Part shown: positions 2,092-40,210 of the stretch, piece after piece
Numbering within the stretch: the first letter of the stretch is position 1
Layout of the letters: the number at the start of each line of letters is the position of its first letter
Assembly: GCA_964549305.1 (NCBI GenBank)
Contig: CAZJVM010000007.1
Coordinates: forward strand, 3,029-67,028
Reading direction: 5' to 3'
Length of the DNA: 64,000 bases
Origin: an uncultured bacterium
GTDB taxonomy: Bacteria; Schekmanbacteria; GWA2-38-11; J061
Notes under the pieces: generated by a model
The model's input: only the letters and a program-made list of their open reading frames with translations
Told to the model about the DNA's origin: nothing
Database searches by the model: none
Program-made: the position numbers and the translations under genes

Positions 2092-2126
2092 TTATCTTTA
2101 TTTCCTTTTTCAATATCTAAGAAAAT

Positions 2127-20609: not shown

Positions 20610-23336
20610 ATGATCAGAAAGTTTTTCATATTTCTTCTTTTAAGCGCTCTTCTCCTTTCTCCCTTAACTTCCGCTCTTTGCGCTGAAACTGGAAAAATCA
20701 AAGGTGTCGTCAAAGACGAACAAAATGGCGAAGCACTTCCCGGCGTGACAATAACCGTCGATGGAACAGACATAGTAACTTTTACCGATGAGAAGGGAAG
20801 TTTCGAAATAGATATTTCCGAAGGGACATATACGGTAATCGCGGAATTCTTGGGATACAGTCCTTCAAAGGCGGAAAATGTAGTTGCCTCCTCTGAAAAG
20901 GATAACATCGTAAATTTTTCCTTGAAGGAGTTTGCCGCAATCGAAGGAGATACAGTCATAGTAACGGGCGACAGGATGAACATTCCCCTTTCAAGGGCAA
21001 CTGCTTCAGTTGAAGTAGTAAATTCCAAAAAATTTGAAATGACTGCAGGCGCTGATAATGCAGGCGATATTTTGAAAAACACCCCCGGCATCCAGATGGA
21101 AAGCGTTGGAGGTCCCGGAACAAGAAAAATCATCAAAATCAGAGGTCAGGGTTCTCAAACAGACAGCAACAGGGTTCTTCTTCTGATTGATGGAATACCA
21201 GCACAATCACCAAGAGTCGGGACTGGAGAACTTTCAGATTTTCCCGTTGAAATGATAGAACGCATAGAAGTAATGAAGGGTGCGGCATCTGCTATCTATG
21301 GCGGAAGTGCACAAGCAGGCGTCATAAACATAATCACGAAAAAGGGCAGAAAAAAACCCGTTTTTAAATTCAACACAAAGGTAAGCACATATCAGCACAG
21401 AACAAACGCCAATCAGGACTGGACGCAGTATTACGGAATATTTCATAGTTGGGGGGGAGAAAACTGGAATTACACTATAAGCGGTTCATACTTGTTTTCA
21501 AAAGGATTAACATATGCTGAAACTGGAAATATCGGTATCCTGTCAGCTAAAGAAAAATTCATTAAAGTCAATTATCCGGGATTCCCCGACTTTAAACCGA
21601 AAGAGAAAGCAACAGCACCTCCATTTTTTAATCAGGACTTGAATGCGCTTGAAGATATAGGAGCTCTTGATGACAGTGAAAATTATAATGTTTCGGCATC
21701 ATTCGGGGCAACACTTTTCAAGGGAAACCATATTAATTTAGCTGTCGGTTATTCCTTCAGGAAAAATCCCCAGTCATTTGGTGTTTTTACTGTTCCAACA
21801 ATGCAGTTACAAAGCGGTGGTAAGAGAGAATACCTCAATGTCTCCGATAACTGGGAAATTACTCCTAATCTTTTATACAGTTTAAAGATCAATCTTGCAA
21901 AAATTACTGAACCTGCAGATGTTCTCTTCTTTTCAAGTGATTACCAGTCAAAAAGGAATGCAGGTTATTATAAGAGAAATGGCATTGATCCCGAAAGTGA
22001 TATAGATTTTTATAAGGGTACCGGTGTACCTATCAACCCTGCTGTATTTCGTTATTTTTCAAAAAACTGGGGCGCGGACAATTCGCTGACTTATACTTCT
22101 GATATTCTTGAACCTGAAGGCAACAATTTAACAGTGGGGCATGCCTTCAGATGGGAAAAAGTTGACCTGCCTCTCTCAAAAAATGGTGGAACCCGTATCT
22201 TTACTGAGACTCCACAGCGAAGAAAATTCAACTCTTTATACTTTCAGGATGTCCAGAAATTCGGAAAACTCAATGTTAACATAGGCGGAAGATGGGAACA
22301 GGTATCAGGTTTCGTAGATGACTGGCAAGATGAATTTTCCCCCAGATTTGCAATAAATTACGAAATCAAACCCGGAACTTCCTTCAGGGCATCAGTAGGA
22401 AGGGCATTCAGACCACCTGAATACAGTCATATCTTTTGGCTGGAAGGACAGGGCGGAACTCTCTACGGCAATCCCAATCTTGGCTATGAGGTGACATGGT
22501 CGTATGAGCTTGGTTTTAAATTCCTGACAAAATATTTAAGCGGTGACATTGCATATTTTTTCAGCAAATATTCAGACCAGGAAGTGCAGGCGCCTCTCCT
22601 TGCCACAAATCCGGAGTTTATTAACCTTAACAATCCAAAAAACGTTAAGTTTTTTAAAATTTATAAAAAAAACAGAGAAATACTTGGAGAAGATATTTCA
22701 AGGGCAGTTGAAGAAATTGTTGACTATTATATTGATAAAGGGTTTTCAACAAAAGAAGGACTAATAAGCAGTGCTCAGCGATCAGTGACATGGATTAATC
22801 GTGGAACCTCTGTCCATCAGGGTTTTGACATCAGTTTTGATATCTCCAATCCGTGGCTTCCTGAATTTGCAGTCGGAGTTAATTATCTCTTTGACAGGGC
22901 AGTGGCAGAGGGAAGGAATCCCTTTGATTTTTCACAAGGAAGCGCTCCAAAAACAATATACAGCATCAATGATTTAGGTGGAAAGAAAAGTGCCGTTCCT
23001 CTTTCACTCATTGAGCTTAACGGAAATCGCTTAATTGAAACCCCCACTCATACATTGAGAGTTAGTACAAGCTACAGATTTCCTTTCGGACTTATTGGAA
23101 CAATCAATGGAAGATTTAAAAGTACCACCTTTTTCAGAACTCCATACTCAACAAGCGGAGCTATTTCTCAACCCGAGCACTGGGTTTGGGACATCGCACT
23201 TGTCCAACCATTGTTCAAAGGCAAAATGAAAATACAATTTGCCATAGAGAATATTTTCAGCAAACTTTATTATGAAGTCGGAATGATACCGTCAAGTGTT
23301 GCAAGATATGAATTGGGATTAAGCTGGGATTTTTAA
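20610..23336 (+). CDS. TonB-dependent outer-membrane receptor with N-terminal carboxypeptidase-regulatory-like domain
   Basis: Signal peptide, a CarbD-like segment (GKIKGVVKDEQNGEALPGVTITVDGTD), TonB box/plug (DTVIVTGDRM; plug), and a barrel with terminal aromatic ...LSWDF. Confidence 0.85.
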   Translation: MIRKFFIFLLLSALLLSPLTSALCAETGKIKGVVKDEQNGEALPGVTITVDGTDIVTFTDEKGSFEIDISEGTYTVIAEFLGYSPSKAENVVASSEKDNIVNFSLKEFAAIEGDTVIVTGDRMNIPLSRATASVEVVNSKKFEMTAGADNAGDILKNTPGIQMESVGGPGTRKIIKIRGQGSQTDSNRVLLLIDGIPAQSPRVGTGELSDFPVEMIERIEVMKGAASAIYGGSAQAGVINIITKKGRKKPVFKFNTKVSTYQHRTNANQDWTQYYGIFHSWGGENWNYTISGSYLFSKGLTYAETGNIGILSAKEKFIKVNYPGFPDFKPKEKATAPPFFNQDLNALEDIGALDDSENYNVSASFGATLFKGNHINLAVGYSFRKNPQSFGVFTVPTMQLQSGGKREYLNVSDNWEITPNLLYSLKINLAKITEPADVLFFSSDYQSKRNAGYYKRNGIDPESDIDFYKGTGVPINPAVFRYFSKNWGADNSLTYTSDILEPEGNNLTVGHAFRWEKVDLPLSKNGGTRIFTETPQRRKFNSLYFQDVQKFGKLNVNIGGRWEQVSGFVDDWQDEFSPRFAINYEIKPGTSFRASVGRAFRPPEYSHIFWLEGQGGTLYGNPNLGYEVTWSYELGFKFLTKYLSGDIAYFFSKYSDQEVQAPLLATNPEFINLNNPKNVKFFKIYKKNREILGEDISRAVEEIVDYYIDKGFSTKEGLISSAQRSVTWINRGTSVHQGFDISFDISNPWLPEFAVGVNYLFDRAVAEGRNPFDFSQGSAPKTIYSINDLGGKKSAVPLSLIELNGNRLIETPTHTLRVSTSYRFPFGLIGTINGRFKSTTFFRTPYSTSGAISQPEHWVWDIALVQPLFKGKMKIQFAIENIFSKLYYEVGMIPSSVARYELGLSWDF

Positions 23337-23450
23337 ATTTTTTTTCATTGCGGCTCTTATTTTTTTTCGATATGCAAATCCCTTCAAATTTAATATAATG
23401 TGTATTTGTTTTTTACGCTTTACCCTTATAACATTTTACAGAGAGGAACT

Positions 23451-26177
23451 ATGATCAGAAAGTTTTTCGTATTTCTTCTTTTAAGCGCTCTTCTCCTTTC
23501 CCCCTTAACTTCCGCTCTTTGCGCTGAAACCGGGAAAATCAAAGGTATCGTCAAAGACGAACAAAGCGGCGAAGCGCTTCCCGGCGTTACAATAACCGTC
23601 GATGGCACAGACATAGTAACTTTTACCGATGAGAAGGGAAGTTTCGAAATAGATATTTCCGAAGGGACATATACGGTAATCGCGGAATTCTTGGGATACA
23701 GTCCTTCAAAGGCGGAAAATGTAGTTGCCTCCTCTGAAAAGGATAACATCGTAAATTTTTCCTTGAAGGAGTTTGCGGCAATCGAGGGGGAAGAAGTCAT
23801 CGTGACAGGCGACAGAATGAACATCCCTATTTCAAGGGCAACAGCATCTGTAGAAGTTGTGAACTCCAAAAAATTTGAAGTTACCGCGGGCGCAGACAAT
23901 GCGGGAGATATCCTGAAAAACACGCCCGGAGTGCAGATGGAAAGCGTTGGAGGACCAGGCACAAGAAAAATCATTAAAATCCGCGGACAGGGTTCACAGG
24001 TTAACAGCAATCGTGTACTGCTTCTAATTGACGGTATACCGGCACAATCTCCAAGAGTCGGTACAGGTGAGCTTTCGGATTTTCCCGTTGAAATGATTGA
24101 GCGTATTGAAGTTATGAAGGGCGCCGCGTCTGCCATATACGGCGGAAGCGCTCAGGCAGGCGTCATAAACATAATCACGAAAAAGGGGAGAAAAAAACCT
24201 GTCTTTAAATTTAACACAAAGGTGAGCACATATCAGCACAGGACAAACGCCAATCAGGACTGGTCTCAATACTACGGTATATTTCACAGTTGGGGGGGAG
24301 AAAATTGGAATTATACCATAAGCGGTTCATACCTCTTTTCAAAGGGTCTGACTTATGCCGAAAAGGGAAATATCGCTGTTTTTCCTGCAAAAGGAAATTT
24401 TATTTCAGTTAATCACCCCGGATTCCCCGGGTTTAACCCGAAAGAAAAAGCAACGGCACCGCCATTTTTCAATCAGGACATGAATGTTTTACAAGATACC
24501 GGAGATCTCGATGACAGCGAAAATTACAATGTAAATGCATCATTCGGCGCAAAACTTTTTAAAGGAAATCGTTTCAATTTATCAGTTGGCTATTCCTTCA
24601 GAAAAAATCCACAGTCCTTCGGTGTTTTGACTGTGCCTACAATACAATTACAAAGCGGAGGGAAAAGAGATTATATTAATTTCTCAGATAACTGGGAAAT
24701 AACGCCCGACCTCTCATACAGTTTTAAGCTCAATCTCGCAAAAATCACGGAAAACGCGGATCTCGTTTTCTTTTCAAGCGATTATGTTTCTAAAAGAAAT
24801 GCCGGATACTATAAAAGAAATAACATAGACCCATGGACAGATGTTGATTTCTATAAAGGTACGGGCATCCCGGGAAATGTTGCGCCCTTTCATTATTTTG
24901 CCAAAAACTGGAATATGGACAACTCTATAACCTTTACTTCTGACATTTTGGAACCTGATGGAAACGGTCTTACTATTGGAGAATCATTCAGGTGGGAAAA
25001 GGTTGATTTGCCTCCTTCAAAAAACGGAGGAAATCTGATTTTTACCGAAACACCACAACATAGAAAATTCACTTCTCTTTATTTTCAGGATGTTCAGAAA
25101 TTCGGAAAACTTAATGTCAACATAGGCGGGAGATGGGAGCAGATAACGGGTTTTATTGATGATTGGGACGACGAGTTTTCACCAAGAGTTGCCATAAATT
25201 ACGAAATCAAACCGGGCACTTCCATAAGGGCGTCTGTGGGAAGGGCATTCAGACCGCCTGAATATTCACACATATATTGGTTTAAGGGGCAGGGAGGCAA
25301 TCTTTATGGCAACCCCAATCTCGGTTATGAAATCACCTGGTCCTATGAACTCGGATTCAAGTTTCTCACAAAATATCTGAGCGGCGACATTGCGTATTTT
25401 TACAGCAAATACTCAGATCAGGAAGTGTCGGTCCCCCTTCTCGCCGTAAATCCTAACTTTATCAATCTTAACAATCCCAAAAATGTTAAATTTTTTAAAA
25501 TTTATAAACAAAACAGGGAAATACTTGGAGAAGGAATAGCGAAATCCGTTGAAGAAGTTATTGATTATTACATTAGCAATGGCTTTATTAATAAAGAAGA
25601 GCTTATCAATGAAGCCCAGAGGTCAGTTACGTGGATTAACAGGGGGACATCAGTACATCAGGGTTTTGATGTAAGTTTTGATATTTCAAATCCGTGGTTG
25701 CCCGAGTTCGCAATCGGAATAAATTACCTCTTTGACAGAGCAGTGGCAGAAGGCAGAAACCCTTTCGATTTTTCTCAGGGAGACGCACCAAGCCCGGTTT
25801 TAGGCATTAACAGCTTGGGAGGAAAAAAATCTCCTATCCCACTATCACTTCTTGAACTTAATGGAAATCGACTTGTTGAAGTACCAACCCATAATTTCCG
25901 GGTACGGACAAGTTATAGATTTCCTTTTGGCCTAATGGCAACAATTAACGGCAGGTTTAAAAGCACAAGCCGCTTTAAATCCAATTACTCGGCAAGTGGC
26001 GCAATTCCTCAACCGGAACACTGGATTTGGGATTTGGCTCTTGTGCAGCCACTTTTTAATGGAAAAATGAAGGTCAAGTTTGCAATAGAAAACATCTTCA
26101 GCAAACTCTATTATGAAGTGGGAATGATACCGTCAAGCGTCGCAAGGTATGAATTGGGATTGAGTTGGGAGTTTTAA
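23451..26177 (+). CDS. TonB-dependent outer-membrane receptor, tandem paralog
   Basis: Same architecture as the first receptor. The start was taken at MIRKFF by analogy to its paralog (the ORF track extends to 23400). It ends ...LSWEF. Confidence 0.85.
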   Translation: MIRKFFVFLLLSALLLSPLTSALCAETGKIKGIVKDEQSGEALPGVTITVDGTDIVTFTDEKGSFEIDISEGTYTVIAEFLGYSPSKAENVVASSEKDNIVNFSLKEFAAIEGEEVIVTGDRMNIPISRATASVEVVNSKKFEVTAGADNAGDILKNTPGVQMESVGGPGTRKIIKIRGQGSQVNSNRVLLLIDGIPAQSPRVGTGELSDFPVEMIERIEVMKGAASAIYGGSAQAGVINIITKKGRKKPVFKFNTKVSTYQHRTNANQDWSQYYGIFHSWGGENWNYTISGSYLFSKGLTYAEKGNIAVFPAKGNFISVNHPGFPGFNPKEKATAPPFFNQDMNVLQDTGDLDDSENYNVNASFGAKLFKGNRFNLSVGYSFRKNPQSFGVLTVPTIQLQSGGKRDYINFSDNWEITPDLSYSFKLNLAKITENADLVFFSSDYVSKRNAGYYKRNNIDPWTDVDFYKGTGIPGNVAPFHYFAKNWNMDNSITFTSDILEPDGNGLTIGESFRWEKVDLPPSKNGGNLIFTETPQHRKFTSLYFQDVQKFGKLNVNIGGRWEQITGFIDDWDDEFSPRVAINYEIKPGTSIRASVGRAFRPPEYSHIYWFKGQGGNLYGNPNLGYEITWSYELGFKFLTKYLSGDIAYFYSKYSDQEVSVPLLAVNPNFINLNNPKNVKFFKIYKQNREILGEGIAKSVEEVIDYYISNGFINKEELINEAQRSVTWINRGTSVHQGFDVSFDISNPWLPEFAIGINYLFDRAVAEGRNPFDFSQGDAPSPVLGINSLGGKKSPIPLSLLELNGNRLVEVPTHNFRVRTSYRFPFGLMATINGRFKSTSRFKSNYSASGAIPQPEHWIWDLALVQPLFNGKMKVKFAIENIFSKLYYEVGMIPSSVARYELGLSWEF

Positions 26178-26316: not shown

Positions 26317-26334
26317 ACTGCCTCTTTAAACAAT

Positions 26335-26407
26335 GGGCCGTTAGCTCAGGTGGTAGAGCATCTCCCTTTTAAGGAGAGGGTCGTTGGTTCGAGCCCAACA
26401 CGGCTCA
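26335..26407 (+). tRNA. tRNA-Lys (anticodon TTT)
   Basis: Folded by hand as a cloverleaf. The 7 bp acceptor is GGGCCGT/ACGGCTC. D-arm GCTC..GAGC. Anticodon stem TCTCC/GGAGA with loop CTTTTAA. T-arm GTTGG-TTCGAGC-CCAAC. No encoded CCA. Confidence 0.9.
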
Positions 26408-26456
26408 AAGCTGATATTTTCATTTGGAGATATTGTTTTTTCAGGTTTTAAGATGT

Positions 26457-26529
26457 GTCCCCATCGTCTAGTGGTCTAGGACACCGGCCTTTCACGCCGG
26501 CAGCGGGGGTTCGACTCCCCCTGGGGACG
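26457..26529 (+). tRNA. tRNA-Glu (anticodon TTC)
   Basis: Acceptor GTCCCCA/TGGGGAC. Anticodon stem CCGGC/GCCGG with loop CTTTCAC. T-arm GGGGG-TTCGACT-CCCCC. Confidence 0.9.
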
Positions 26530-26963
26530 TATTTTGCGCCCTTCCTCTTATTATTCAAAAGCCATTGATTTATAAATCGATTCCTGAGTGTCGGTTTTTT
26601 GAACAGATAAATTCTTTATTTTTCAATTGGTTACATAAAAGAAAGGAAAAGTGTTATATTTTTTGGACACTTTTGAGAAATATTAGGAATAATTTAAAAC
26701 GATATATTAACTTCAAATTTTCTTTTTTTGATAATTATATCTTTAAAATTCAATAGGATATATCTGAGTTGTTTTCTTTGTTTCACATTTTGGCATTGAA
26801 ATTGCATAATTGTAAATAAATCAGTATTTAATTTGAAGAGGCTTTACATTATGTCGCTTAACAGAAAAATGAAGTACATTTCTCTTTATATACTGATATT
26901 TGCCCTCTCAGCTTTTATTGCCTGTTCGGTTATAAACTGAAACCCCGCCAAAGAATCAGCTAT

Positions 26964-27158
26964 TCATGCTGTTACCTCTGAAATAGCTTTATGTTGGCAT
27001 ACTTCACAACATACAAGACATCCTGTACAAAGGTTTTCAAGCCATACAACCGCTTCATCTCCTAAACGCAGAGCGTTATAGTCACACATATCAATGCAGC
27101 TTAAACAGGCCACACATATTTGTCTGTCAATTTTTATAATTGTTTTTCCGGAATTCAT
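26964..27158 (-). CDS. Ferredoxin-like protein (FixX-like), 2 Cys clusters
   Basis: 64 aa with CVACLSCIDMC and CTGCLVCCEVC. Its start overlaps the stop of the upstream flavoprotein gene by 4 nt. Confidence 0.7.
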   Translation of the reverse strand: MNSGKTIIKIDRQICVACLSCIDMCDYNALRLGDEAVVWLENLCTGCLVCCEVCQHKAISEVTA

Positions 27159-28519
27159 TTTTGAAATTCTTCTCCCCGCTTTAAAATCATGGAAACGAGC
27201 AACCTTACCTTTTGAGATTTTATTTCTGACGATTTCACAGAAAGAAGAGTCTTATACATATTTTTTATATACTCATTGGGCGTTCCAAACATATCATCAC
27301 TACCTTTAAGATGATCAATAACAATTTCTTCATTGAATATTCCAAAAAGTTCATTCAGATCTTCTTCATCAAGTGAATGCATAAATGTTGAAAAATCGAC
27401 CTGTTTCCTTGCATTCTTCACATACTTACCCCACCACTTATTATATCTCTCGATGGCATCCTTTGCTCCGTCACAACCCAGTATCTTTTCTATAGTTTCA
27501 GCCGCCCGGGCTGCGATTGCCATTGCGCCTGCCCACTGGGTTTCTATTGTAAATGCCGTATCGCCGAGGAAACTCATCCCTTCCAGAGCAAAAGGTTCTG
27601 CAATAGGAGAATCAACGGGAAGATAACAGCAAAACCTTTTGTAGGGGCATGCCTTACTAAATGCCTCTGCGCATGCATCATGATTATTCAGGAAATTGAG
27701 GAAATTTTTAAGGAAATCCACTGGGTTATCTGAGGAATTGTTTTTCGTATCATGGTCATTAATATCTGTAATAGTGTACATCTCCCCTTCACCAAGGTAT
27801 GCGGCCAGAGCAAGGGCATTTGGACCTGAAAATTTTCTGTTAAGATACATATTATGAAACGTGGGGTCAAAAAGTTCACTTCTGGACGTAAGGGATATAT
27901 CAAAATCCTTAAATTTCAGGCCTGCAATCCTTTTGGATCCCCAGTGTTTCTTCACAATTCCGGCAAGCCGCGAAATTTTCGATCTTATGCCGTCTGCGGC
28001 CACAACATGGTCAGCCTTAATTTTCAAATGAGAATTTCCTGCATTTTCAGCCAATAATCCAGTTACACGATTTTTTTTCTTTATGAGGCCGACAATCTCA
28101 AATCCGTAAAATAAAGCTGTGCCGGCTTCCCTTGCCTCTTTTTCAAGCTTCTCTACCCAATAACGGTAATCGATGCGATAATTAGTCGGAGAAATAGAAC
28201 GGAGGCGCAGATTCTGCTTGCCGGGAGAATATGTTGCAAACCCGTATATTTCATTTTTAATGCTGTGCTTTTCAAGCGTGAACCCGCTTTCGAGGAAATA
28301 AATGCCGTTGTCATTTATACTTACCCTGTTTGGCTGGAGAGAAAGCATCTCCATTATGCCAGGATTAATAAAGGTTGGCGAAGGCTTCCGGTCAACGACT
28401 GCTACCTTAAATCCTTTCCCGGATAACTTCTTTGCTGCCATTAATCCGCATGGCCCTGCACCTGCAATCGCTATATCAAATGATTTTTCTGTCATAATAC
28501 TAAATTCCTCATTTTCCAT
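27155..28519 (-). CDS. FAD-dependent oxidoreductase, geranylgeranyl-reductase/FixC-like family
   Basis: Rossmann dinucleotide motif DIAIAGAGPCG and a GD..G-like region. It has a roughly 100 aa C-terminal extension. The true start is possibly the internal MTEKSF. Confidence 0.75.
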   Translation of the reverse strand: MENEEFSIMTEKSFDIAIAGAGPCGLMAAKKLSGKGFKVAVVDRKPSPTFINPGIMEMLSLQPNRVSINDNGIYFLESGFTLEKHSIKNEIYGFATYSPGKQNLRLRSISPTNYRIDYRYWVEKLEKEAREAGTALFYGFEIVGLIKKKNRVTGLLAENAGNSHLKIKADHVVAADGIRSKISRLAGIVKKHWGSKRIAGLKFKDFDISLTSRSELFDPTFHNMYLNRKFSGPNALALAAYLGEGEMYTITDINDHDTKNNSSDNPVDFLKNFLNFLNNHDACAEAFSKACPYKRFCCYLPVDSPIAEPFALEGMSFLGDTAFTIETQWAGAMAIAARAAETIEKILGCDGAKDAIERYNKWWGKYVKNARKQVDFSTFMHSLDEEDLNELFGIFNEEIVIDHLKGSDDMFGTPNEYIKNMYKTLLSVKSSEIKSQKVRLLVSMILKRGEEFQK

Positions 28520-28585
28520 ACACCGTCGGAATTTTCAAAACCTTGTTTTTTTTCAATACACATAATTAATAAATGAACTTTGAAA

Positions 28586-29074
28586 TTATTTTATAGGACT
28601 AATCCTAAAAGTGCATTTTTCAGCACCTGCCGCAATTCTTGAAATGATTGTCATCTTACAGCCAATCTTCTCAACCTGTTTTGCTTCCCGTTCGCAGAGA
28701 TATTTACACACTTCTTTTTCAAGCCCGTATTGCCCTGCTACATCCAATGGAGGACAATTCAAAAAAGAGAGTTGGAGCTCGTTTTCTGTTTCAGAATCTC
28801 TTTCTACACAGAAACCTAACATCCTGTCAGGCACACCTATATTTTGTTTTAAATCTGCAAATTTTAACTTCATTTTCATGTTGCTTGCCGTTTGATGAAA
28901 CATACATTCCCTGATAGACCAATAAAGCTCTTTTCCTTTTTCCCCTAATTGTTCTGTCAAAACCTTATAAGCAGCAGCATCTCTGCTGAAAACAGCTTTT
29001 CTTAAAAATTCTATCTGTCTGTCGAGAGGGATTTCATTGTCGATAATGACATGATTGTTTTCTATTCCTGTCAT
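28586..29074 (-). CDS. Small four-cysteine protein, ATC-hydrolase-like family (third member in window)
   Basis: 162 aa. Its C-terminal pattern F-L-N-C ... E-V-C-K-Y-L-C ... I-G-C ... K-C-T-F is parallel to the 5..532 and 588..1124 ORFs. Confidence 0.45.
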   Translation of the reverse strand: MTGIENNHVIIDNEIPLDRQIEFLRKAVFSRDAAAYKVLTEQLGEKGKELYWSIRECMFHQTASNMKMKLKFADLKQNIGVPDRMLGFCVERDSETENELQLSFLNCPPLDVAGQYGLEKEVCKYLCEREAKQVEKIGCKMTIISRIAAGAEKCTFRISPIK

Positions 29075-29142
29075 AACTTACCTCCTTGAATATGATTATT
29101 ATCTTTTATTGCTATAAATTTTTTCATGCGTTTCTTTCATTC

Positions 29143-29907
29143 TCATGCAAAAAGAAATTCATGTAAAAATCTTTCCGTCCACTCCTCACCAAAAAATTTT
29201 CTATACAATCCGCCTCCTGGATCATTTTCAGCATATGCGCTTTTAAACTTATTTTTAAACTCAAGCACTTCTGTCAGAAGCTCAGGGTTCTCAATAGGGG
29301 TAGCTTCCTTCACTTTCTCAATATATAAATTGAGATATTCTTTAAAACCCTGCTCTATCTTCTCCTCATATTCTTTCGGACAACGAAAATAAAAAGGATA
29401 TTTTGAGGAATATTCTCTAGTCCATTCTCTTAATTGGGTACGTGATCCTCCAAGCAGAGGAATATTTTTATATTTCTCCTTAATTTCCGCCAAAGGTTCT
29501 GAATAATGCTTTAAATACAATTCATCCCTGCGCATAGGATGGAAATCCAGTAAAATAAAAAGCCAGCCCTTTGTCTCAGCCGAATCATAAATCAGAGCGG
29601 GAAAGTCATAGTTATTGGCAGGCCATATAACACTATTTCTCACATAGACGGCACCTACAGCATTAAATGCAGAGGTCTTAATATTTTCAAACTTCTCAAA
29701 GGAATAAAGACTGCTTCTTTGCTCTATGAGGCTTTTTCCCTCTATATTTTTTTTATGTGCGAAATCTTTCGGCAGTTCGTCCTTCCTAAGCTTGAAATGC
29801 TGAGTCAATGATTCAATGAGGATTTCATTGAATCTAAGTTTCAACGATTGCCCCGGTGCTCGTTCATAAAGAAGTCCCGCCTCTTTATTTCTATCTTTAG
29901 AACCCAT
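29143..29907 (-). CDS. Ferredoxin-dependent bilin reductase (FDBR, PcyA/PebA-family) homolog, paralog 1
   Basis: The C-terminus RKFFGEEWTERFLHEFLFA matches the PcyA C-terminal KAFGEAWAERYMSQVLFD. The core NSVIWP...DFPALIYDSA aligns to PcyA HCVMFP...LPLFGCDIV, with the catalytic Asp conserved but Asn in place of the PcyA His88-equivalent. Confidence 0.6.
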   Translation of the reverse strand: MGSKDRNKEAGLLYERAPGQSLKLRFNEILIESLTQHFKLRKDELPKDFAHKKNIEGKSLIEQRSSLYSFEKFENIKTSAFNAVGAVYVRNSVIWPANNYDFPALIYDSAETKGWLFILLDFHPMRRDELYLKHYSEPLAEIKEKYKNIPLLGGSRTQLREWTREYSSKYPFYFRCPKEYEEKIEQGFKEYLNLYIEKVKEATPIENPELLTEVLEFKNKFKSAYAENDPGGGLYRKFFGEEWTERFLHEFLFA

Positions 29908-29980
29908 TTTGTTTGCCTTTTTTTGTCATAAGACTCCTGTCAAAAACTATACTGTTGTAAAAAAATGTTTCAGCAATCTC

Positions 29981-30508
29981 CTAATCCTTTGTCCAGTGCA
30001 GAAAATACATCCATTGTTTCGCCGTATTCATAAAGTGGATTTCTTCAGGCTCGATTTTGATTGCACACATTCTGTTAAAGAGCACCTCTTCATAATTCTC
30101 ACCAAAATCCCGTATAAGATTGTCTATCCCATAATTCTCAAAACCCTTTCTCGTTCCCTTCTTTTCAACATGCTCCATAAAGAGAGATTCGTTGTTCCTG
30201 AGAGTTATTATTTCCCCTTTGCCCCGGTAGGAAATACCAACAGTTGTTGTCCATCCATAGGTCCCCTTTTCATAATTTTCGAAACGGGACACAGCCACAT
30301 TGGGGTTTTCCAGTACATCCTTAACCTTTTGACCCTCCTGTGAATCACAGCTTATCCACATGGTCAGCCCCTCATTTCTGTAACCTACCGGTGTTGCCTT
30401 AATAATATTATCGTGAGATGTAGATAGTACGCACAGAAAGTTAGCATCCAAATATTCAATAATCTCCTGCTCTACTTCTTTCTTATTTTTTCCAAAATTC
30501 TTCTCCAT
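29981..30508 (-). CDS. Pyridoxamine 5'-phosphate oxidase-like FMN-binding split-barrel protein
   Basis: 175 aa. N-terminal NFLCVLSTSHDN...ATPV is typical of the PNPOx-like fold. Its size equals HutZ-type proteins, and it has two His near the C-terminus. Confidence 0.6.
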   Translation of the reverse strand: MEKNFGKNKKEVEQEIIEYLDANFLCVLSTSHDNIIKATPVGYRNEGLTMWISCDSQEGQKVKDVLENPNVAVSRFENYEKGTYGWTTTVGISYRGKGEIITLRNNESLFMEHVEKKGTRKGFENYGIDNLIRDFGENYEEVLFNRMCAIKIEPEEIHFMNTAKQWMYFLHWTKD

Positions 30509-30637
30509 AATTTTTCTCCTTTTTAATTGATAAGATAAATGCTATTTGATGATTACAAAGAATATCTTAGTGCTGAGCATGTCCTCGCTTTCGCATTCTC
30601 CATCACGATCTATGACATTTTTTTTCATCAGTTCAGA

Positions 30638-30880
30638 TCATCCGCATGAATATATTACTCCTGTCCCGCTTGCAGGAACCTGAACCTGAATGGCACCTGC
30701 ATCACACACAACTTCACAACTCCAACACTCAAGACATTGATCTATATGTAAAACATAGGCCTTGTCTTCTTTTATCTCAAAGACCTGACCGCCGCAGATG
30801 ACAGTGCAACTTCCACAACCAGTACATTTTTTTTGATTAACGACAATAAATCTTTCCGGTGCCTGAACTCGTTTACCCAC
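30638..30880 (-). CDS. 2x[4Fe-4S] ferredoxin (FixX-like)
   Basis: 80 aa with CTGCGSCTVIC and CLECWSCEVVC. Confidence 0.8.
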   Translation of the reverse strand: MGKRVQAPERFIVVNQKKCTGCGSCTVICGGQVFEIKEDKAYVLHIDQCLECWSCEVVCDAGAIQVQVPASGTGVIYSCG

Positions 30881-30892
30881 AACATTCCCTCC

Positions 30893-32356
30893 TTAAAATG
30901 GATGGTCATAAACCTTGTTTTCAGTGAATGACTGCTGATTTTTTTGAAACCACTTTAGTATTCGCGGAAACATATCAGGGTCTGCAAGAATTGGAGCATA
31001 CATATTCAGAAAGTGATTTATTTTTACAGCTATAAGCCAGGCACCCATTTCCTCATATCCAAACTCGCCGCATTTTTCAGGACTTGGAACGCCCATGACA
31101 TGAGGCATTGCAGCAAAACGCATATTATCCACAACTTGCTCCATACTGCATTTATGCTTATCCATATATCCTGCACCGGTACTCCATGATACGATGCGTG
31201 TAGGACTTACCTCACCAAGCTCCTTAGAAAATATTGCCCCTCCCTGAATTTCATCATTATTTTTTAGCTTTCTCTGCACTGCTTCAGAAAATCTTGCTAC
31301 GGCAAAATCTGAAAGAGCTTCCTCTGATAAGTCGTTTCTTTCCAACAGTGGGGTTACAAAAGTTGCCGCACGCTCTCCAGCGTCGCATAATCCTCCTACA
31401 CCACCGGCATCACCGCAGATGATAAGCCCTGCCAGATAAGGTTTTTTTAGTGGAGGGCCCGGCAGAAATGCTGACTGGCGCTGATATGGCCTATCCGGGA
31501 ATCCATCACATGGACGCAACATCCGCTTTACTTCCATTATTTTATAGAGGTTCTGAATATACTTGCTCCGGGAGTTCTTTTGTGAGCGTACCATAGAGCT
31601 TAATGGGGTGAATCCAGTTGGCGCATTAACAGTTACAATGCCCCCGGGGCGCAGACTCATCGTACATCCGCCCCACGGATGAGGCGGGGTCAGAGTGACT
31701 CCATAAAATATATGTCGCGCATACTCAACATATTCAAACATCTCTTCTTCCGACCTGAATTTCCACGCTTCGCCGTACTGATAACAGCATATATCTTTAT
31801 TCCATTTCCTTAAAAGACCTGCTTTCTTTGCAACGGTTGAAGTCCTTCCGTCAGCGGCAATGGTAAGCTGTGCTCTGATTTCTTCGCCGCTTTGAGTTAT
31901 AACACCCTTCACAACTTGATTTTTAATAAGCAGACTTGCAATCTTGACACCCGTTCTAAGCTCGGCACCGGCTTCCACAGCTTCTTTCGAAAGAACCCTG
32001 ACAAAGTCGCAATTATTAACACCGTAACTTTCTTCCTGAGCGGTACTTCCAGGTGCAACAGACATAGATTTGAATATAACCTTATTGCTTGCGTCAACAT
32101 AGTAGTAATGATGGGCTCTTCCCAGGTCTCCGGGATTCAGGTGCGGTATCTTTTTGATAACTCCCTTCATTAGTTTAACCAGGCGGGGACGGTTATGGTA
32201 GATTACACCCGGAACATACTCAGTCGCCCCCTGGCATTTGTCTCCCGGAGTTGTGCTCGCTTCAATAAGCAAAGTTTTAAAACCGCTTTTTGCCAGAAAA
32301 TAGGCGGCTGTCCCGCCATTGCTACCTGCACCCACAATAATAACATCATATGTCAT
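30893..32356 (-). CDS. FAD-dependent oxidoreductase, geranylgeranyl-reductase/FixC-like family
   Basis: Dinucleotide-binding YDVIIVGAGSNGGTAA. The start is taken at the internal MTYDVII because a GGAGG lies about 8 nt upstream of it. The ORF track extends to 32416. Confidence 0.75.
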   Translation of the reverse strand: MTYDVIIVGAGSNGGTAAYFLAKSGFKTLLIEASTTPGDKCQGATEYVPGVIYHNRPRLVKLMKGVIKKIPHLNPGDLGRAHHYYYVDASNKVIFKSMSVAPGSTAQEESYGVNNCDFVRVLSKEAVEAGAELRTGVKIASLLIKNQVVKGVITQSGEEIRAQLTIAADGRTSTVAKKAGLLRKWNKDICCYQYGEAWKFRSEEEMFEYVEYARHIFYGVTLTPPHPWGGCTMSLRPGGIVTVNAPTGFTPLSSMVRSQKNSRSKYIQNLYKIMEVKRMLRPCDGFPDRPYQRQSAFLPGPPLKKPYLAGLIICGDAGGVGGLCDAGERAATFVTPLLERNDLSEEALSDFAVARFSEAVQRKLKNNDEIQGGAIFSKELGEVSPTRIVSWSTGAGYMDKHKCSMEQVVDNMRFAAMPHVMGVPSPEKCGEFGYEEMGAWLIAVKINHFLNMYAPILADPDMFPRILKWFQKNQQSFTENKVYDHPF

Positions 32357-32470
32357 AACACCACCCTCCGCTTGACAAATAGAGAAAAGGCATCTATAGT
32401 TAGTATCTAAGAGCAAATTGTTTTATTAACTATTACCTTTACAAACATATAGTATTAGGAGAACTAATAA

Positions 32471-32995
32471 ATGTCAAGAGAAAAAACCGAGAAAAAAAAG
32501 ATTAAGACCAACAAGAAAAATCAGGATCAGGTTATTGAATATTACATACGGCAACTCCACATCGATCTTAAAAGAGCGCTAACATCCTATGTCCTCATGT
32601 TTATTTTAAAAATAAGGCCTCACTATTCTTTTGAAATTAGAAAAAAGGCTATTGAAATAGGCACCCTCATTAGCAATATTTCCGGAGTTGATGAACCAAA
32701 AATAATAATAGCTCCAAAAGTTATCTACGATAATTTCAAAAAACTGGAAAAAAAAGGCTTAGTCGGCAGCTATTTGAAAAAATCTGAAGTTGGCCCTGAC
32801 AGAAAATATTATTATCTCACCGCGTTGGGGGAACGCCTTTTTGATGAAGCAGTTATCAAAATCCTTTATCCCCGCTTACTGCTTTTTATAACCGCCGTCG
32901 ATAACGGTATTAAAGAATTGAACGGAATAGCAGAACCCGCAAGAAAGGAAACTAAGAAACTGCATAGCTTGATTAATGATATTTTTAACAGCTAA
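32471..32995 (+). CDS. PadR-family transcriptional regulator, divergent from the reductase gene string
   Basis: Winged-helix PadR pattern SYVLMFIL...EKKGLVGSYLKK...RKYYYLTALGERLF. Confidence 0.6.
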   Translation: MSREKTEKKKIKTNKKNQDQVIEYYIRQLHIDLKRALTSYVLMFILKIRPHYSFEIRKKAIEIGTLISNISGVDEPKIIIAPKVIYDNFKKLEKKGLVGSYLKKSEVGPDRKYYYLTALGERLFDEAVIKILYPRLLLFITAVDNGIKELNGIAEPARKETKKLHSLINDIFNS

Positions 32996-35710: not shown

Positions 35711-36850
35711 TTAAGACTTTCTGAAACTTACGTAAAAAAATCCCGCTATAATGAATGAGAGAGCAGACGCAATGAAGAAGGGAAATTTAATACCCAGAGA
35801 AACCGAGATTATACCCGCGCCCGCAGGGGCGATTAAATAGGCAACGGAAAAGGACATATTCCAGAGAGCGTATGCCGTGCCTTCGGCATTGATGGCGGAT
35901 TCGGAGATAAGAGTCATTGACGCCGTTACCATTGTGCCGAGGGCAAAACCGAAAAAAACCGAAAGCACAGTCCAGACAAAAAACGACGCGCTTTGCACAA
36001 AAAGAGTTATCGTCACCCCTGCAATTAAAAAGGAAGCTACAACAGGTTTCAGGCATCCTGAAAGGGATATCCATTTCCCGATAAGCGGTTGGCAGATTGT
36101 AAGCACAATTGCCATTACACCAAAAAGTATTCCTATCTCCAATTTCTTAAAGGCAAGTGAATCCATATAAAGTGGAAACAAAAGTTCGAGTACTCCGACG
36201 CAAAGATAGGCATAAAATATAACGGCACAACCCAAAAGGATTTTTCTTTCCCGAAGAAGCGAAAAAAGAGAGGCGTTGTCGCTTTTATCCCTTACAAAAT
36301 CATCTTTCACTGCAAAGAACGAAACCGCTGACATAAGAAGGGAAATCACGGCGCAAATGAGAAAAGGAAGTTCGAAAGGGCTCATTCCGCCTATTATGGG
36401 GCCGGCAATAAGCCCCAATCCGTATGAAGCGCTGATTAAGCTTAAATAGCGCGCGCGCTTATTTCCGCTTTCCGCGCATTTTGAAGCAAGGGGTTGTGCG
36501 GCAACCCATGAGACAGCAGATGCCATCCCCTGAAAAGCCCTTGCCGCAAAGAAAACGATAAATGAATCCGTTATAGTCAAAAGGCAGGAAGAAAGAAAAA
36601 GAAGAAACATACCAGATGAAATCACCAAACGGTGTTTCCCCGTGCGGTCGATGATTTTTCCCACAGGCAATACAACAAGAATGAACGCCACGGGATAGGC
36701 TGAAAAAGCGAACCCCAACGCCCTTTCCGAGACATTGAGAATCTTCGCGAATATTGGTATTGCCGGCGTTATTATCCCGTAACCGAGCATATCGGTAAAA
36801 ATCACACCGCAGCATACAAGCAGAGTAATTACGGAAGATCTTTTCCCCAT
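35711..36850 (-). CDS. MFS transporter
   Basis: 12 TM-like segments and a G-x-L-x-D-R-x-G-R-like loop (GKIIDRTGKHR). Confidence 0.8.
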   Translation of the reverse strand: MGKRSSVITLLVCCGVIFTDMLGYGIITPAIPIFAKILNVSERALGFAFSAYPVAFILVVLPVGKIIDRTGKHRLVISSGMFLLFLSSCLLTITDSFIVFFAARAFQGMASAVSWVAAQPLASKCAESGNKRARYLSLISASYGLGLIAGPIIGGMSPFELPFLICAVISLLMSAVSFFAVKDDFVRDKSDNASLFSLLRERKILLGCAVIFYAYLCVGVLELLFPLYMDSLAFKKLEIGILFGVMAIVLTICQPLIGKWISLSGCLKPVVASFLIAGVTITLFVQSASFFVWTVLSVFFGFALGTMVTASMTLISESAINAEGTAYALWNMSFSVAYLIAPAGAGIISVSLGIKFPFFIASALSFIIAGFFYVSFRKS

Positions 36851-36944: not shown

Positions 36945-37670
36945 TCAACCCCCTGCAAAGAGGATATTGTGGAAATAGTAATCAGCCCACTCCCTGCCGA
37001 AATATTTTTTCATTGGGCCGTACCCGGGATCCTGATCGATATATGCCTGAACTATTCTTTTTCTTCCTTCTGCAACCTTTTGAATCCTTTCATCATCATC
37101 GAGCGGATTCGCGGCACTAACAAAAGAAACATAGGTTTCAAAATAGTCCATAGTGGCAGCGAAAGACTCTTCAAGACAGTCCAAGTTCGTGGATGTTACA
37201 TTCAGACCGTAACCGGAAGCTATGTTTTTAAGCCATTCTCTGTCACGAGGTATTTCGTTTGGGAGATTCTTATATTTTTCGTGAAGGAGTTTTATAGGTG
37301 AAATATATTTTTCATCCGTTTCTCTATCTCTTAAATATGGCTGAATATCGCAAAACATTACTATCATTTTCCCAAAGACAACTACATCGGTGCCGAAAAA
37401 AGGAAGGTCGTATTTTCCGTCGGGAAAGATACTGAAGTTGTGCGACTGCACAACGCCGTGGACAACGAGCTTTGAAAGTGAAATATGCTTCAGTTTTTCC
37501 GTGTGGAAGGTCTTTGCCATATTTTCAACGTCTTTTCCTTCGGCGTGAACTTTTTTGTAGACGAATTCCTCTGCAAGTTCGTTCTGGACCGGATTTAACG
37601 CTTTTGTCATTTTCCCGACCATGCGTTCATAGAAATCATATACCTTCAATCCATCGGTATTCTCACTCAT
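36945..37670 (-). CDS. Ferredoxin-dependent bilin reductase (FDBR) homolog, paralog 2
   Basis: C-terminus KKYFGREWADYYFHNILFAGG. The core HNFSIFPDGKYDLPFFGTDVVVFG aligns to PcyA [24 protein letters not shown] with the catalytic His and Asp both conserved. KLKHISLSKL is similar to PcyA RKMHLELAKV. Confidence 0.65.
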   Translation of the reverse strand: MSENTDGLKVYDFYERMVGKMTKALNPVQNELAEEFVYKKVHAEGKDVENMAKTFHTEKLKHISLSKLVVHGVVQSHNFSIFPDGKYDLPFFGTDVVVFGKMIVMFCDIQPYLRDRETDEKYISPIKLLHEKYKNLPNEIPRDREWLKNIASGYGLNVTSTNLDCLEESFAATMDYFETYVSFVSAANPLDDDERIQKVAEGRKRIVQAYIDQDPGYGPMKKYFGREWADYYFHNILFAGG

Positions 37671-38480: not shown

Positions 38481-38496
38481 ATATTCCGCAAAATCC

Positions 38497-39072: not shown

Positions 39073-39152
39073 ACTTTTTTCAGCTCTTTAATTTTTAAAA
39101 GAGGCAAAACCTCGAACGGATTTTTTAACTTTAATAAAACAGCAATGTCAAT

Positions 39153-39539: not shown

Positions 39540-39540
39540 T

Positions 39541-40101: not shown

Positions 40102-40210
40102 CTTTATCTCTCCCTTTAAAAATTGGAACTTTGAAACTTTCAAAGTTAAGTTTATTATAATTTCAGGCTGATGGACAAAATATTTTTTTTATAATTCACT
40201 TTAAAAAGCC

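What the first reader, a model, noticed from the sequence alone, without database searches (positions are those of the whole stretch)
26964..32995. Candidate anaerobic bilin/tetrapyrrole reduction gene cluster
This is a seven-gene minus-strand string, divergent from a PadR-family regulator. It runs in order: flavoprotein (GGR/FixC-like, 30893-32356), ferredoxin (30638-30880), PNPOx-like split-barrel protein (29981-30508), FDBR homolog (29143-29907), small four-Cys protein (28586-29074), flavoprotein (27155-28519) and ferredoxin (26964-27158). What the sequence shows: the 254 aa protein has the PcyA-family C-terminal block (FFGEEWTERF..FLF versus PcyA AFGEAWAERY..VLF) and the central LP-[LF]-[FI]-G/Y-x-D-[IS]-[VA] block with the catalytic Asp. 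Established knowledge: FDBRs are ferredoxin-dependent four-electron/two-electron reducers of biliverdin. They are normally found in cyanobacteria, algae and cyanophages, and rarely in heterotrophs. Split-barrel PNPOx-like proteins include the heme oxygenases HugZ/HutZ/ChuZ and the F420-dependent biliverdin reductase Rv2074. GGR-family flavoproteins reduce C=C bonds. Inference: this is a dedicated pathway that makes, or further reduces, a linear tetrapyrrole in an apparently anaerobic, non-photosynthetic bacterium, using its own ferredoxins as electron donors. That combination with GGR-like reductases has not been described.
Basis: partly seen in the sequence, partly recalled or inferred. Interest (0 to 1): 0.85.

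Follow-up and report, generated by a model that had tools for sequence, protein, structure and literature searches.

The report
Bilin reductase inside a ferredoxin-flavoprotein operon
An uncultured, probably anaerobic bacterium carries two genuine but uncharacterized relatives of the enzymes that make algal bile pigments, one of them inside an operon of flavoproteins and ferredoxins, but related genomes show that the pigment enzyme and the rest of that operon can each persist without the other.

Summary
The 254-aa protein and a 241-aa paralog 7 kb away are true Fe_bilin_red members (130 and 116 bits; cutoff 31). Both keep the two catalytic Asp residues. They resemble PebA/PebB rather than PcyA, reach no characterized equivalog cutoff, and belong to a rare non-cyanobacterial clade (5 clusters at E<=1e-30 among 1.84 billion). 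The idea of a dedicated seven-gene bilin pathway is only partly supported. One other species keeps PadR|flavoprotein-ferredoxin-split-barrel-FDBR. Another keeps all accessory genes but has the FDBR reduced to a stub and replaced by a different flavoprotein. Several relatives keep the FDBR alone or in tandem with a third FDBR type, with only a decayed split-barrel remnant. A split-barrel plus flavoprotein plus FDBR arrangement does recur independently in another FDBR subfamily. The flavoproteins are only distant GGR/FixC relatives. I found no heme oxygenase or globin among the window ORFs scanned. The structure-based tests of the two small proteins were inconclusive. Verdict: a new FDBR variant in a new, facultative redox context. 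The substrate is unknown.

The parts
32471..32995 (+). PadR-family regulator, divergent from the operon
   Evidence: Pfam PadR 39.1 bits. A divergent promoter-like pair lies in the 32357-32470 gap. The same divergent position, at 68-70% identity, is kept in L087 and L088.
30893..32356 (-). Flavo1: 487-aa FAD flavoprotein, a distant GGR/FixC relative
   Evidence: FAD_binding_3 52.6 bits and GG-red-SF 70.7 bits, below the 158.8 cutoff. PDB FixC 7koe_C 33.6 bits and DGGR 3oz2 32.2 bits. It has a Cys at the GGR catalytic-Cys position (DKCQGA) and an ICGD motif but no YxWxFP. 79% identical in L087 and L088.
30638..30880 (-). Fd1: 80-aa 2x[4Fe-4S] ferredoxin, 12 bp after Flavo1
   Evidence: Fer4 family hits, HgcB-like at 54 bits. 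Two CxxCxxCxxxC motifs are visible in the sequence. 63-65% identical in L087 and L088.
29981..30508 (-). 175-aa PNPOx-like split-barrel protein, the most conserved gene of the cluster
   Evidence: PNPOx_N 29.6 bits. A profile search of the PDB gives GSP26 3ec6 at E 0.015. 90-94% identical in L087 and L088. A decayed 42-codon remnant lies upstream of the FDBR in L001 and L004, and a 20-codon piece lies at the contig start in L005.
29143..29907 (-). A-type FDBR, 254 aa (ferredoxin-dependent bilin reductase family)
   Evidence: Fe_bilin_red 130.2 bits. PebA model 124 bits and PebB 106 bits, both below cutoffs. GtPEBB 100 bits. Catalytic D108 and D229 are present.
28586..29074 (-). 162-aa ATC_hydrolase-family protein with three invariant Cys; possibly a V4R/H-NOX-like ligand-binding fold
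27155..28519 (-). Flavo2: 454-aa FAD flavoprotein, a distant GGR relative
   Evidence: FAD_binding_3 53.4 bits and GG-red-SF 57.8 bits, below cutoff. DGGR 3oz2 36.6 bits over nearly the full length. It lacks both the GGR Cys and YxWxFP. Among the loci examined it was found only in the window's own species (L090). In L087 a different 447-aa flavoprotein takes a place between the FDBR stub and ATCh.
26964..27158 (-). Fd2: 64-aa 2x[4Fe-4S] ferredoxin, overlapping the Flavo2 stop by 4 bp
   Evidence: Fer4 34.1 bits. Two Cys motifs are present. It is present in L090 and absent from L087.
36945..37670 (-). C-type FDBR paralog, 241 aa, outside the operon and followed by an MFS transporter gene
   Evidence: Fe_bilin_red 116 bits. 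PebB model 100.5 bits and PebA 91.8 bits. Both Asp residues are present. A 57% homolog with the MFS gene nearby is in L034.

Best explanation
The region is a composite, PadR-controlled operon of an uncultured, probably anaerobic bacterium. At its centre is a genuine ferredoxin-dependent bilin reductase from a rare, uncharacterized, non-cyanobacterial clade on the PebA/PebB side of the family. It most likely reduces a biliverdin-type linear tetrapyrrole by two or four electrons, using Asp108 and Asp229 as proton donors as PebA, PebB and PebS do. Electrons would come from low-potential 2x[4Fe-4S] ferredoxins such as the two encoded in the operon. The neighbouring genes are two flavoprotein-ferredoxin pairs, a highly conserved split-barrel protein and a Cys-containing ATC_hydrolase-family protein. 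I read these as a facultative redox and handling module acting on the same or a related substrate: supplying it, reducing it further, or carrying it. The split-barrel protein is the partner with the best comparative support. Shown: the gene content, family membership, catalytic residues, rarity of the clade, operon-like layout and the pattern of conservation. Inferred: the substrate, the electron path, and any chemical link between the FDBR and the flavoproteins.
For: The layout is tight and co-directional, with one divergent promoter region and no intergenic terminator. PadR|Flavo1-Fd1-PNPOx-FDBR is conserved in a second species, L088, at 62-90% aa identity. The window's own species is seen again in L090. 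A split-barrel remnant directly upstream of the FDBR in L001, L004 and L005 shows that this adjacency is ancestral in the lineage. An independent arrangement, PNPOx-like then FMN_red-like then B-type FDBR, recurs in L007, L008 and L011. There is a precedent for a GGR-type flavoenzyme that needs the ferredoxin encoded at its own locus (PMC10821996). Known FDBR clusters of heterotrophs also contain Fe-S and V4R proteins (PMC10151467). Gut anaerobes need separate flavoenzymes for the methine bridges and vinyl groups of bilins (bioRxiv 10.64898/2026.06.10.731317).
Against: The modules are separable. L087 keeps PadR|Flavo1-Fd1-PNPOx...ATCh, but the FDBR is a 75-aa stub replaced by another flavoprotein. 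L001, L003, L004 and L091-L094 keep an intact FDBR with no flavoprotein, ferredoxin or ATC_hydrolase gene within up to 10 kb. I found no heme oxygenase, globin or other bilin-binding protein among the window ORFs scanned, so the source and fate of any bilin are unknown. If the organism is a strict anaerobe, canonical oxygen-dependent biliverdin formation is a problem. The flavoproteins score far below GGR and FixC cutoffs. The structural tests of the two small proteins were inconclusive.
Confidence: 0.45

Rival explanations
1. These are independent modules. The PadR-regulated flavoprotein/ferredoxin/split-barrel/ATC_hydrolase cluster acts on a non-tetrapyrrole substrate, such as an isoprenoid, quinone, aromatic or xenobiotic compound. 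The FDBR merely occupies a variable slot in it, and its real partner is the second FDBR (C-type here, B-type in relatives), as in the two-step PebA/PebB scheme.
For: L087 retains the accessory genes after loss of the FDBR, with another flavoprotein in the same slot. The FDBR persists alone or in tandem with a B-type FDBR elsewhere. Tandem FDBR pairs occur in L005, L006 and L091, like cyanobacterial pebA-pebB in L017. PadR regulators and V4R/XylR_N-type sensor folds are typically associated with phenolic or hydrophobic ligands; the fold hits to DmpR, MopR and PoxR are, and the PadR point rests on general knowledge. The two window paralogs lean toward PebA (A-type) and PebB (C-type) respectively.
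Against: The FDBR sits in the middle of the string with 68-73 bp gaps and no terminator. The PNPOx-FDBR adjacency is ancestral and recurs in an unrelated FDBR subfamily together with a flavin reductase. The window's two FDBRs are 7 kb apart and not co-transcribed.
Confidence: 0.35
2. The FDBR homologs do not act on biliverdin-type bilins. They would reduce another tetrapyrrole-derived compound, such as a chlorophyll catabolite (as RCCR does), an anaerobically opened heme product, or an imported phycobilin from decaying phototrophs. Alternatively they could serve as non-catalytic tetrapyrrole-binding proteins.
For: The organism shows anaerobe-type features: rubrerythrin, many 4Fe-4S proteins and radical SAM enzymes here, and AFOR and SelB in relatives. 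No heme oxygenase was found among the window ORFs scanned. Two TonB-dependent receptors and an MFS transporter lie next to the FDBR genes. All scores are far below the equivalog cutoffs. B-type relatives lack the central Asp. FDBR variants can bind cyclic tetrapyrroles (PMC13446030 abstract).
Against: Both catalytic Asp residues, and the Asn typical of PebA/PebB, are retained in the A and C types. No RCCR chain was matched at E<=1, while PEBB and PebA match strongly. All FDBR lineages characterized so far, including the heterotroph pre-PcyAs, use BV.
Confidence: 0.15

Closest known systems
PebA/PebB (cyanobacterial and algal 15,16-DHBV:ferredoxin and PEB:ferredoxin oxidoreductases) and phage PebS
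   Same: They share the same Pfam family and are the best sequence matches (GtPEBB 100 bits, PebA 75 bits). The central and C-terminal catalytic Asp and the Asn at the PcyA-His88 position are conserved. There are two paralogs per genome, and tandem pairs occur in relatives.
   Different: Identity is only 25-32%. Scores are 92-124 bits against equivalog cutoffs of 263 and 327, while true PebA and PebB controls score 380 and 473. They form their own A-D grouping in a rough NJ tree with 58% bootstrap. The host is non-photosynthetic, with no phycobiliprotein or heme oxygenase gene nearby.
pre-PcyA gene clusters of heterotrophic bacteria (HO, Fe-S protein, two V4R proteins, BBAG globin; Rockwell et al. 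2023, PMC10151467)
   Same: Both involve an FDBR in a non-photosynthetic bacterium, clustered with iron-sulfur protein(s) and, tentatively here, a V4R/H-NOX-fold small protein.
   Different: The FDBR here is on the PebA/PebB side of the family, not the PcyA side (PcyA model 44.8 bits). No HO or globin was found. The Fe-S proteins are 2x[4Fe-4S] ferredoxins paired with flavoproteins. A split-barrel protein and a PadR regulator are present instead.
Geranylgeranyl reductase with a dedicated adjacent ferredoxin (Methanosarcina acetivorans; PMC10821996)
   Same: Both have a group-A FAD flavoprotein followed directly by a small ferredoxin gene that plausibly supplies electrons for C=C reduction. Flavo1 keeps a Cys at the GGR catalytic position.
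   Different: TIGR02032 scores are 70.7 and 57.8 bits against a cutoff of 158.8. The YxWxFP motif is absent, and Flavo2 lacks the Cys. The substrate is unknown.
FixC/FixX (ETF-quinone oxidoreductase-like pair)
   Same: FixC is the best PDB sequence match of Flavo1 (7koe_C, 33.6 bits), and it is also a flavoprotein-plus-ferredoxin pair.
   Different: The match covers only the N-terminal FAD domain (48.6 bits against a cutoff of 610). No ETF (FixAB) genes were found among the window ORFs scanned.
Split-barrel heme-degrading enzymes HugZ/ChuZ/HutZ and the F420-dependent biliverdin reductase Rv2074
   Same: They share the PNPOx-like split-barrel fold class. ChuZ and HugZ appear among the weak Foldseek hits of a poor model.
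   Different: There is no sequence match to any of them at E<=10. The nearest is general stress protein 26, at E 0.015. The model has pLDDT 49, so the fold hits carry little weight.
BilR/BilV bilirubin reduction in gut anaerobes (PMC10769871; bioRxiv 10.64898/2026.06.10.731317)
   Same: This is a functional analogy only: anaerobes reduce bilins with several flavoenzymes, each specific for certain double bonds.
   Different: BilR and BilV are Old Yellow Enzyme-family proteins. No OYE domain occurs in this cluster.

Membership tests
Fe_bilin_red (FDBR, PF05996) | Profile score above the Pfam gathering threshold over the full domain | tested here: met
   The 254-aa protein scores 130.2 bits over profile positions 4-227 of 228. 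The 241-aa protein scores 116 bits. The cutoff is 31.
Fe_bilin_red (FDBR, PF05996) | Central beta-sheet catalytic Asp (PcyA D105 / PebS D105 / PebA D84 position) | tested here: met
   D108 in IYDSAE (254 aa) and GTDVV (241 aa) align with the GxDL motif of PebA, PebB and PcyA.
Fe_bilin_red (FDBR, PF05996) | C-terminal helix Asp (PebS D206 / PebA D205 / HY2 D256 position) | tested here: met
   D229 in ENDPGG and QDPGYG align with the (R/K)DP motif of PebA and PebB.
Fe_bilin_red (FDBR, PF05996) | Ferredoxin-dependent reduction of biliverdin | not testable with these tools
   This requires an anaerobic enzyme assay.
PebA, PebB or PcyA equivalogs (NCBIfam) | Score above the equivalog cutoff | tested here: not met
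   A-type: PebA 124 against 263, PebB 106 against 327, PcyA 44.8 against 206. C-type: PebB 100.5, PebA 91.8. Cyanobacterial controls pass at 380 and 473.5.
PcyA | Glu76/His88/Asp105 catalytic triad | tested here: not met
   Asn occupies the His88 position, as in PebA and PebB. Only the Asp is shared (residue table in PMC13446030).
pre-PcyA/BBAG cluster | Adjacent heme oxygenase and bilin-binding globin (BBAG) | tested here: not met
   No Heme_oxygenase, globin or phycobilisome Pfam hit appeared among the larger window ORFs scanned. The unassigned 175- and 178-aa ORFs have no PDB sequence match.
pre-PcyA/BBAG cluster | V4R-domain proteins in the cluster | tested here: inconclusive
Geranylgeranyl reductase family (TIGR02032) | Score above the subfamily cutoff | tested here: not met
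   70.7 bits (Flavo1) and 57.8 bits (Flavo2) against a cutoff of 158.8.
Geranylgeranyl reductase family (TIGR02032) | YxWxFP catalytic-domain motif and the conserved Cys near the flavin | tested here: not met
   No YxWxFP, even in relaxed form, occurs in Flavo1, Flavo2 or the L087 flavoproteins. The Cys is present in Flavo1 (DKCQGA) only. The motif definitions come from my own knowledge of GGR structures and from PMC10821996.
FixC/FixX | Score above the FixC cutoff and association with ETF (FixAB) | tested here: not met
   NF007542 scores 48.6 bits against a cutoff of 610, over the N-terminal FAD domain only. No ETF domain was found among the scanned window ORFs.
HugZ/HutZ/ChuZ heme oxygenases | Sequence or structural similarity beyond the generic split-barrel fold | tested here: inconclusive
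   There was no PDB sequence hit at E<=10. Foldseek gives ChuZ at E 0.012 and HugZ at E 0.056, but from a model with pLDDT 49, alongside GSP26-like proteins.
Rv2074-type F420-dependent biliverdin reductase | Sequence similarity to FDOR-type split barrels | tested here: not met
   No match at E<=10 in either the single-sequence or the profile search of PDB sequences. Only the weak Rv1155 fold hits (E > 1) appeared.

The most novel reading that the evidence does not exclude
The A-D type proteins are a heterotroph-borne 'pre-PebA/PebB' lineage, the counterpart of the pre-PcyA proteins for the other half of the FDBR family. In these anaerobes they would work in a bilin pathway that does not use a canonical heme oxygenase. 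In that pathway a conserved split-barrel protein supplies or processes the linear tetrapyrrole, and flavoprotein-ferredoxin pairs carry out further double-bond reductions.
Probability: 0.2. Interest if true: 0.85.

Novelty: new variant of a known kind. Interest (0 to 1): 0.6.

Why it matters
The origin of bilin biosynthesis is an active question. PcyA has been traced to pre-PcyA enzymes of heterotrophs (PMC10151467). [quoted passage not shown] Recent phylogenies mention two newly seen, uncharacterized clades of unstable placement (PMC13193486). The proteins here are candidates for such a lineage. They retain the catalytic residues, occur as two or three paralog types per lineage, and sit in contexts (split-barrel protein, flavin reductases, 4Fe-4S ferredoxins) unlike any described FDBR cluster. 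If they are active on biliverdin in an anaerobe, this raises directly testable questions: where does the bilin come from without oxygen-dependent heme oxygenase, and what is it used for in a non-photosynthetic cell? The reduced pigments could also be new products of practical interest.

Tried and rejected
1. An alignment query of the species-representative genomes failed because it had no conserved stretch. The single-protein query found only distant Prochlorococcus PebA. The source taxon therefore remains undetermined and the source genome is not in that collection.

2. The word-index homolog searches gave very few relatives: 6 for the FDBR, 3 for the split-barrel protein and 7 for the 162-aa protein. 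The alignments used for structure prediction were therefore shallow.

3. The split-barrel model was too poor (pLDDT 49) for its ChuZ, HugZ and GSP26 hits to discriminate between functions.

5. I considered whether the 1183-aa PAS protein next to the tandem FDBRs in L091 is a phytochrome-type bilin sensor. It has PAS, HisKA, HATPase, receiver and sigma-54 activator domains but no GAF or PHY domain, so I rejected the idea.

6. I considered whether the unassigned 175- and 178-aa ORFs at the window start are BBAG-like globins. They have no Pfam or PDB sequence match and no similarity to the 162-aa protein. This remains unresolved and unsupported.

7. I considered a ChuW-type anaerobic heme-opening enzyme. 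The only radical SAM gene found in the window (48733-50016) has a SPASM domain rather than a HemN-like architecture.

8. The 41-aa ORF upstream of the FDBR in L091 is not the split-barrel remnant.

Full report
**1.

The seven minus-strand ORFs and the divergent PadR gene are at the coordinates given. Profile searches give the following assignments.

| Gene | Coordinates | Length | Result |
|---|---|---|---|
| Flavo1 | 30893-32356 | 487 aa | FAD_binding_3 52.6 bits; GG-red-SF 70.7 bits (cutoff 158.8) |
| Fd1 | 30638-30880 | 80 aa | two CxxCxxCxxxC motifs |
| Split-barrel | 29981-30508 | 175 aa | PNPOx_N 29.6 bits (cutoff 28.1) |
| FDBR | 29143-29907 | 254 aa | Fe_bilin_red 130.2 bits (cutoff 31) |
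| 162-aa protein | 28586-29074 | 162 aa | Pfam ATC_hydrolase 45.9 bits |
| Flavo2 | 27155-28519 | 454 aa | FAD_binding_3 53.4 bits |
| Fd2 | 26964-27158 | 64 aa | two Cys motifs |

Gaps between the genes run from -4 to 129 bp. Most genes have a Shine-Dalgarno-like sequence upstream. A promoter-like pair faces both ways in the 32357-32470 gap, and none of the few terminator-like hits lies in an intergenic gap. A single PadR-controlled transcription unit is therefore plausible, though not demonstrated. It scores 116 bits and is 29% identical to the first.

**2. The FDBRs are real, but PebA/PebB-like and of a rare clade.**

Against PDB sequences the 254-aa protein matches Guillardia PEBB (100 bits) and PebA (75 bits) far better than PcyA (about 35 bits). 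No RCCR chain was matched at E<=1. Against the NCBIfam equivalog models:

- The A-type (254 aa) scores PebA 124 and PebB 106.
- The C-type (241 aa) scores PebB 100.5 and PebA 91.8.
- All scores lie far below the cutoffs of 263 and 327.
- A cyanobacterial pebA-pebB pair in L017, used as a control, scores 380 and 473.5.

Both window proteins keep the central Asp (D108, IYDSAE / GTDVV), the C-terminal Asp (D229, NDPG / QDPG), and the Asn that PebA and PebB carry where PcyA has His88. An exhaustive HMMER scan of 1.84 billion cluster representatives found only 5 clusters at E<=1e-30 and 229 at E<=1e-3.

Metagenomic relatives fall into four types:

- **A:** 254-like.
- **B:** about 240 aa, with Thr replacing the central Asp.
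- **C:** 241-like.
- **D:** about 236 aa.

In a rough neighbour-joining tree these group apart from PebA and PebB, with only 58% bootstrap. The literature records pre-PcyA lineages in heterotrophs (PMC10151467, PMC13446030). It also records two further uncharacterized clades of unstable placement (PMC13193486). I could not test whether those clades are the same as the types seen here.

**3. Gene-order conservation is the key test, and it gives a mixed answer.**

| Locus | Relation to the window | Arrangement |
|---|---|---|
| L090 | 97% nt identity, same species | Repeats FDBR-ATCh-Flavo2-Fd2 |
| L088 | Another species | PadR (68%) \| Flavo1 (79%) - Fd1 (65%) - split-barrel (90%) - FDBR N-terminus (62%), then the contig ends |
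| L087 | Another species | PadR \| Flavo1 (79%) - Fd1 (63%) - split-barrel (94%) - 75-aa ORF - 447-aa flavoprotein (24% to Flavo2) - ATCh (67%); no Fd2 |
| L001, L003, L004 | FDBR 67% identical | FDBR intact; only a stop-interrupted ~45-codon remnant of the split-barrel C-terminus upstream in L001 and L004 (81% identical); flanked by Nitro_FeMo-Co/NUBPL-type genes and a convergent aldehyde:ferredoxin oxidoreductase |
| L091-L094 | 43-62 kb contigs | FDBR-A directly followed by FDBR-B; no flavoprotein, ferredoxin, intact split-barrel or ATC_hydrolase gene within 10 kb |

In L087 the first ~28 residues of the 75-aa ORF match the FDBR N-terminus (EWAPGQTLRLFFNE). At the nucleotide level L087 is colinear with the window up to the FDBR start codon and again from ATCh onward. 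So the FDBR was replaced there.

The FDBR and the accessory genes can therefore each persist without the other. On the other side of the argument:

- The split-barrel/FDBR adjacency is ancestral in this lineage.
- A separate arrangement, PNPOx-like (27% identical, E 5e-9) then FMN_red-like flavoprotein then FDBR-B, is conserved in L007, L008 and L011.

A flavin-type partner next to these FDBRs is thus a recurring theme. The particular seven-gene string is not.

**4. The accessory proteins.**

*Flavoproteins.* Flavo1 and Flavo2 belong to the GGR/FixC/PHBH-type flavoprotein superfamily. Their best PDB matches are FixC 7koe_C and digeranylgeranylglycerophospholipid reductase 3oz2, at 32-37 bits. 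They fail the GGR subfamily cutoff and lack the YxWxFP motif. Only Flavo1 keeps the Cys at the GGR catalytic position. Pairing with a dedicated ferredoxin has a precedent in Methanosarcina GGR (PMC10821996).

*Split-barrel protein.* By sequence it is nearest general stress protein 26-type proteins (E 0.015). It has no match to HugZ, HutZ, ChuZ or Rv2074. Its AlphaFold model is unusable (pLDDT 49), so the weak ChuZ, HugZ and GSP26 fold hits show only the fold class. It is the most conserved protein of the cluster (90-94%).

*162-aa protein.* It has three invariant Cys. Its model is of moderate quality (pLDDT 64). The weak fold hits are mostly V4R/XylR_N sensor domains, Bet3 and H-NOX. That is suggestive, because V4R proteins accompany pre-PcyA genes, but it is not established.

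**5. Context.**

I found no heme oxygenase, globin, ETF or Old Yellow Enzyme among the window ORFs I scanned. Several features point to an anaerobic or microaerophilic heterotroph:

- a Fur-rubrerythrin pair;
- DUF169 genes;
- radical SAM/SPASM;
- a corrinoid methyltransferase fusion;
- ThyX;
- many 4Fe-4S proteins;
- in relatives, AFOR, SelB and sigma-54 systems.

This is an inference. The taxon could not be determined.

**6. Mechanism.**

The best-supported reading has confidence 0.45. The FDBR reduces a biliverdin-type bilin by proton-coupled electron transfer through D108 and D229, with low-potential ferredoxins as donors. The split-barrel protein and the flavoprotein-ferredoxin pairs form a facultative module acting on the same or a related substrate. 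The main rival has confidence 0.35. In it, the accessory cluster has its own non-tetrapyrrole substrate, and the FDBR works with its paralog as a PebA/PebB-like pair. A third possibility (0.15) is a substrate other than biliverdin. The multi-enzyme BilR/BilV system of gut anaerobes shows that stepwise bilin reduction by several flavoenzymes is biologically realistic. It uses unrelated enzyme families.

**7. Verdict.**

This is a new variant of a known enzyme kind in a previously undescribed, but not obligatory, genomic context. I score interest at 0.6. The FDBR clade and its recurring flavin partners deserve experiments. The 'dedicated seven-gene bilin pathway with GGR-like reductases' remains a hypothesis, weakened by the comparative data.

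Noticed in passing
window 36945-37670 (-) and 35711-36850 (-): The second FDBR paralog (C-type, 241 aa) is followed 94 bp later by an MFS transporter gene. L034 has a 57% FDBR homolog with the same MFS gene about 2 kb away.
   Followed up: partly
L005 1129-1875; L091 10980-11726; L007-L013: There is a third FDBR subfamily (B-type, about 240 aa) in which Thr replaces the central catalytic Asp in all seven sequences examined. It sits in tandem with the A-type in L005 and L091-L094. In L007, L008 and L011 it follows a conserved PNPOx-like plus FMN_red-like gene pair, with DUF3795 as well in L011.
   Followed up: partly
L004 3587-3712; L001 7483-7608; L005 2-61: A remnant of the split-barrel gene's C-terminus, with no start codon and stops upstream, is kept at 81-90% aa identity directly upstream of the FDBR. 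That is higher than the 67% identity of the FDBR itself. A recent truncation of a very conserved gene fits, but a residual regulatory or small-ORF role is not excluded.
   Followed up: partly
window 20610-23336 and 23400-26177 (+); 26334-26408 and 26456-26530 (+): Two tandem TonB-dependent receptor paralogs with CarboxypepD_reg N-termini converge on the cluster. They are followed by tRNA-Lys(ttt) and tRNA-Glu(ttc). The same adjacency is seen in L090.
   Followed up: no
window 14957-15049 (+): A c-di-GMP-I riboswitch aptamer is present (72.6 bits; gathering score 35).
   Followed up: no
window 5-532 and 588-1124 (-); 1405-3122 (-): Two tandem paralogous ORFs (175 and 178 aa, 55% identical, Cys-containing C-termini) have no Pfam or PDB sequence match. 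They lie next to two DUF169 genes, one of which has a sub-threshold protochlorophyllide-reductase C-terminal (PCP_red) match.
   Followed up: partly
window 37854-40143 (-) and 40211-41863 (+): Just upstream of the second FDBR there is a run of ThyX, a UbiX-like flavoprotein, a bacterial proteasome-assembly-chaperone-like protein (PAC_bac) and an FMN reductase. It faces a URO-D/B12-binding fusion, which is a corrinoid methyltransferase-type protein.
   Followed up: no
L091 13707-17258 (+): A 1183-aa fusion protein lies 3 kb from the tandem FDBR pair. It combines three PAS domains, HisKA/HATPase, a receiver and a sigma-54 activator/HTH_8 module, and has no GAF or PHY domain.
   Followed up: yes
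window 8641-9446 (+): A Fur-family regulator is followed by an overlapping rubrerythrin gene. This is an oxidative-stress pair typical of anaerobes.
   Followed up: no
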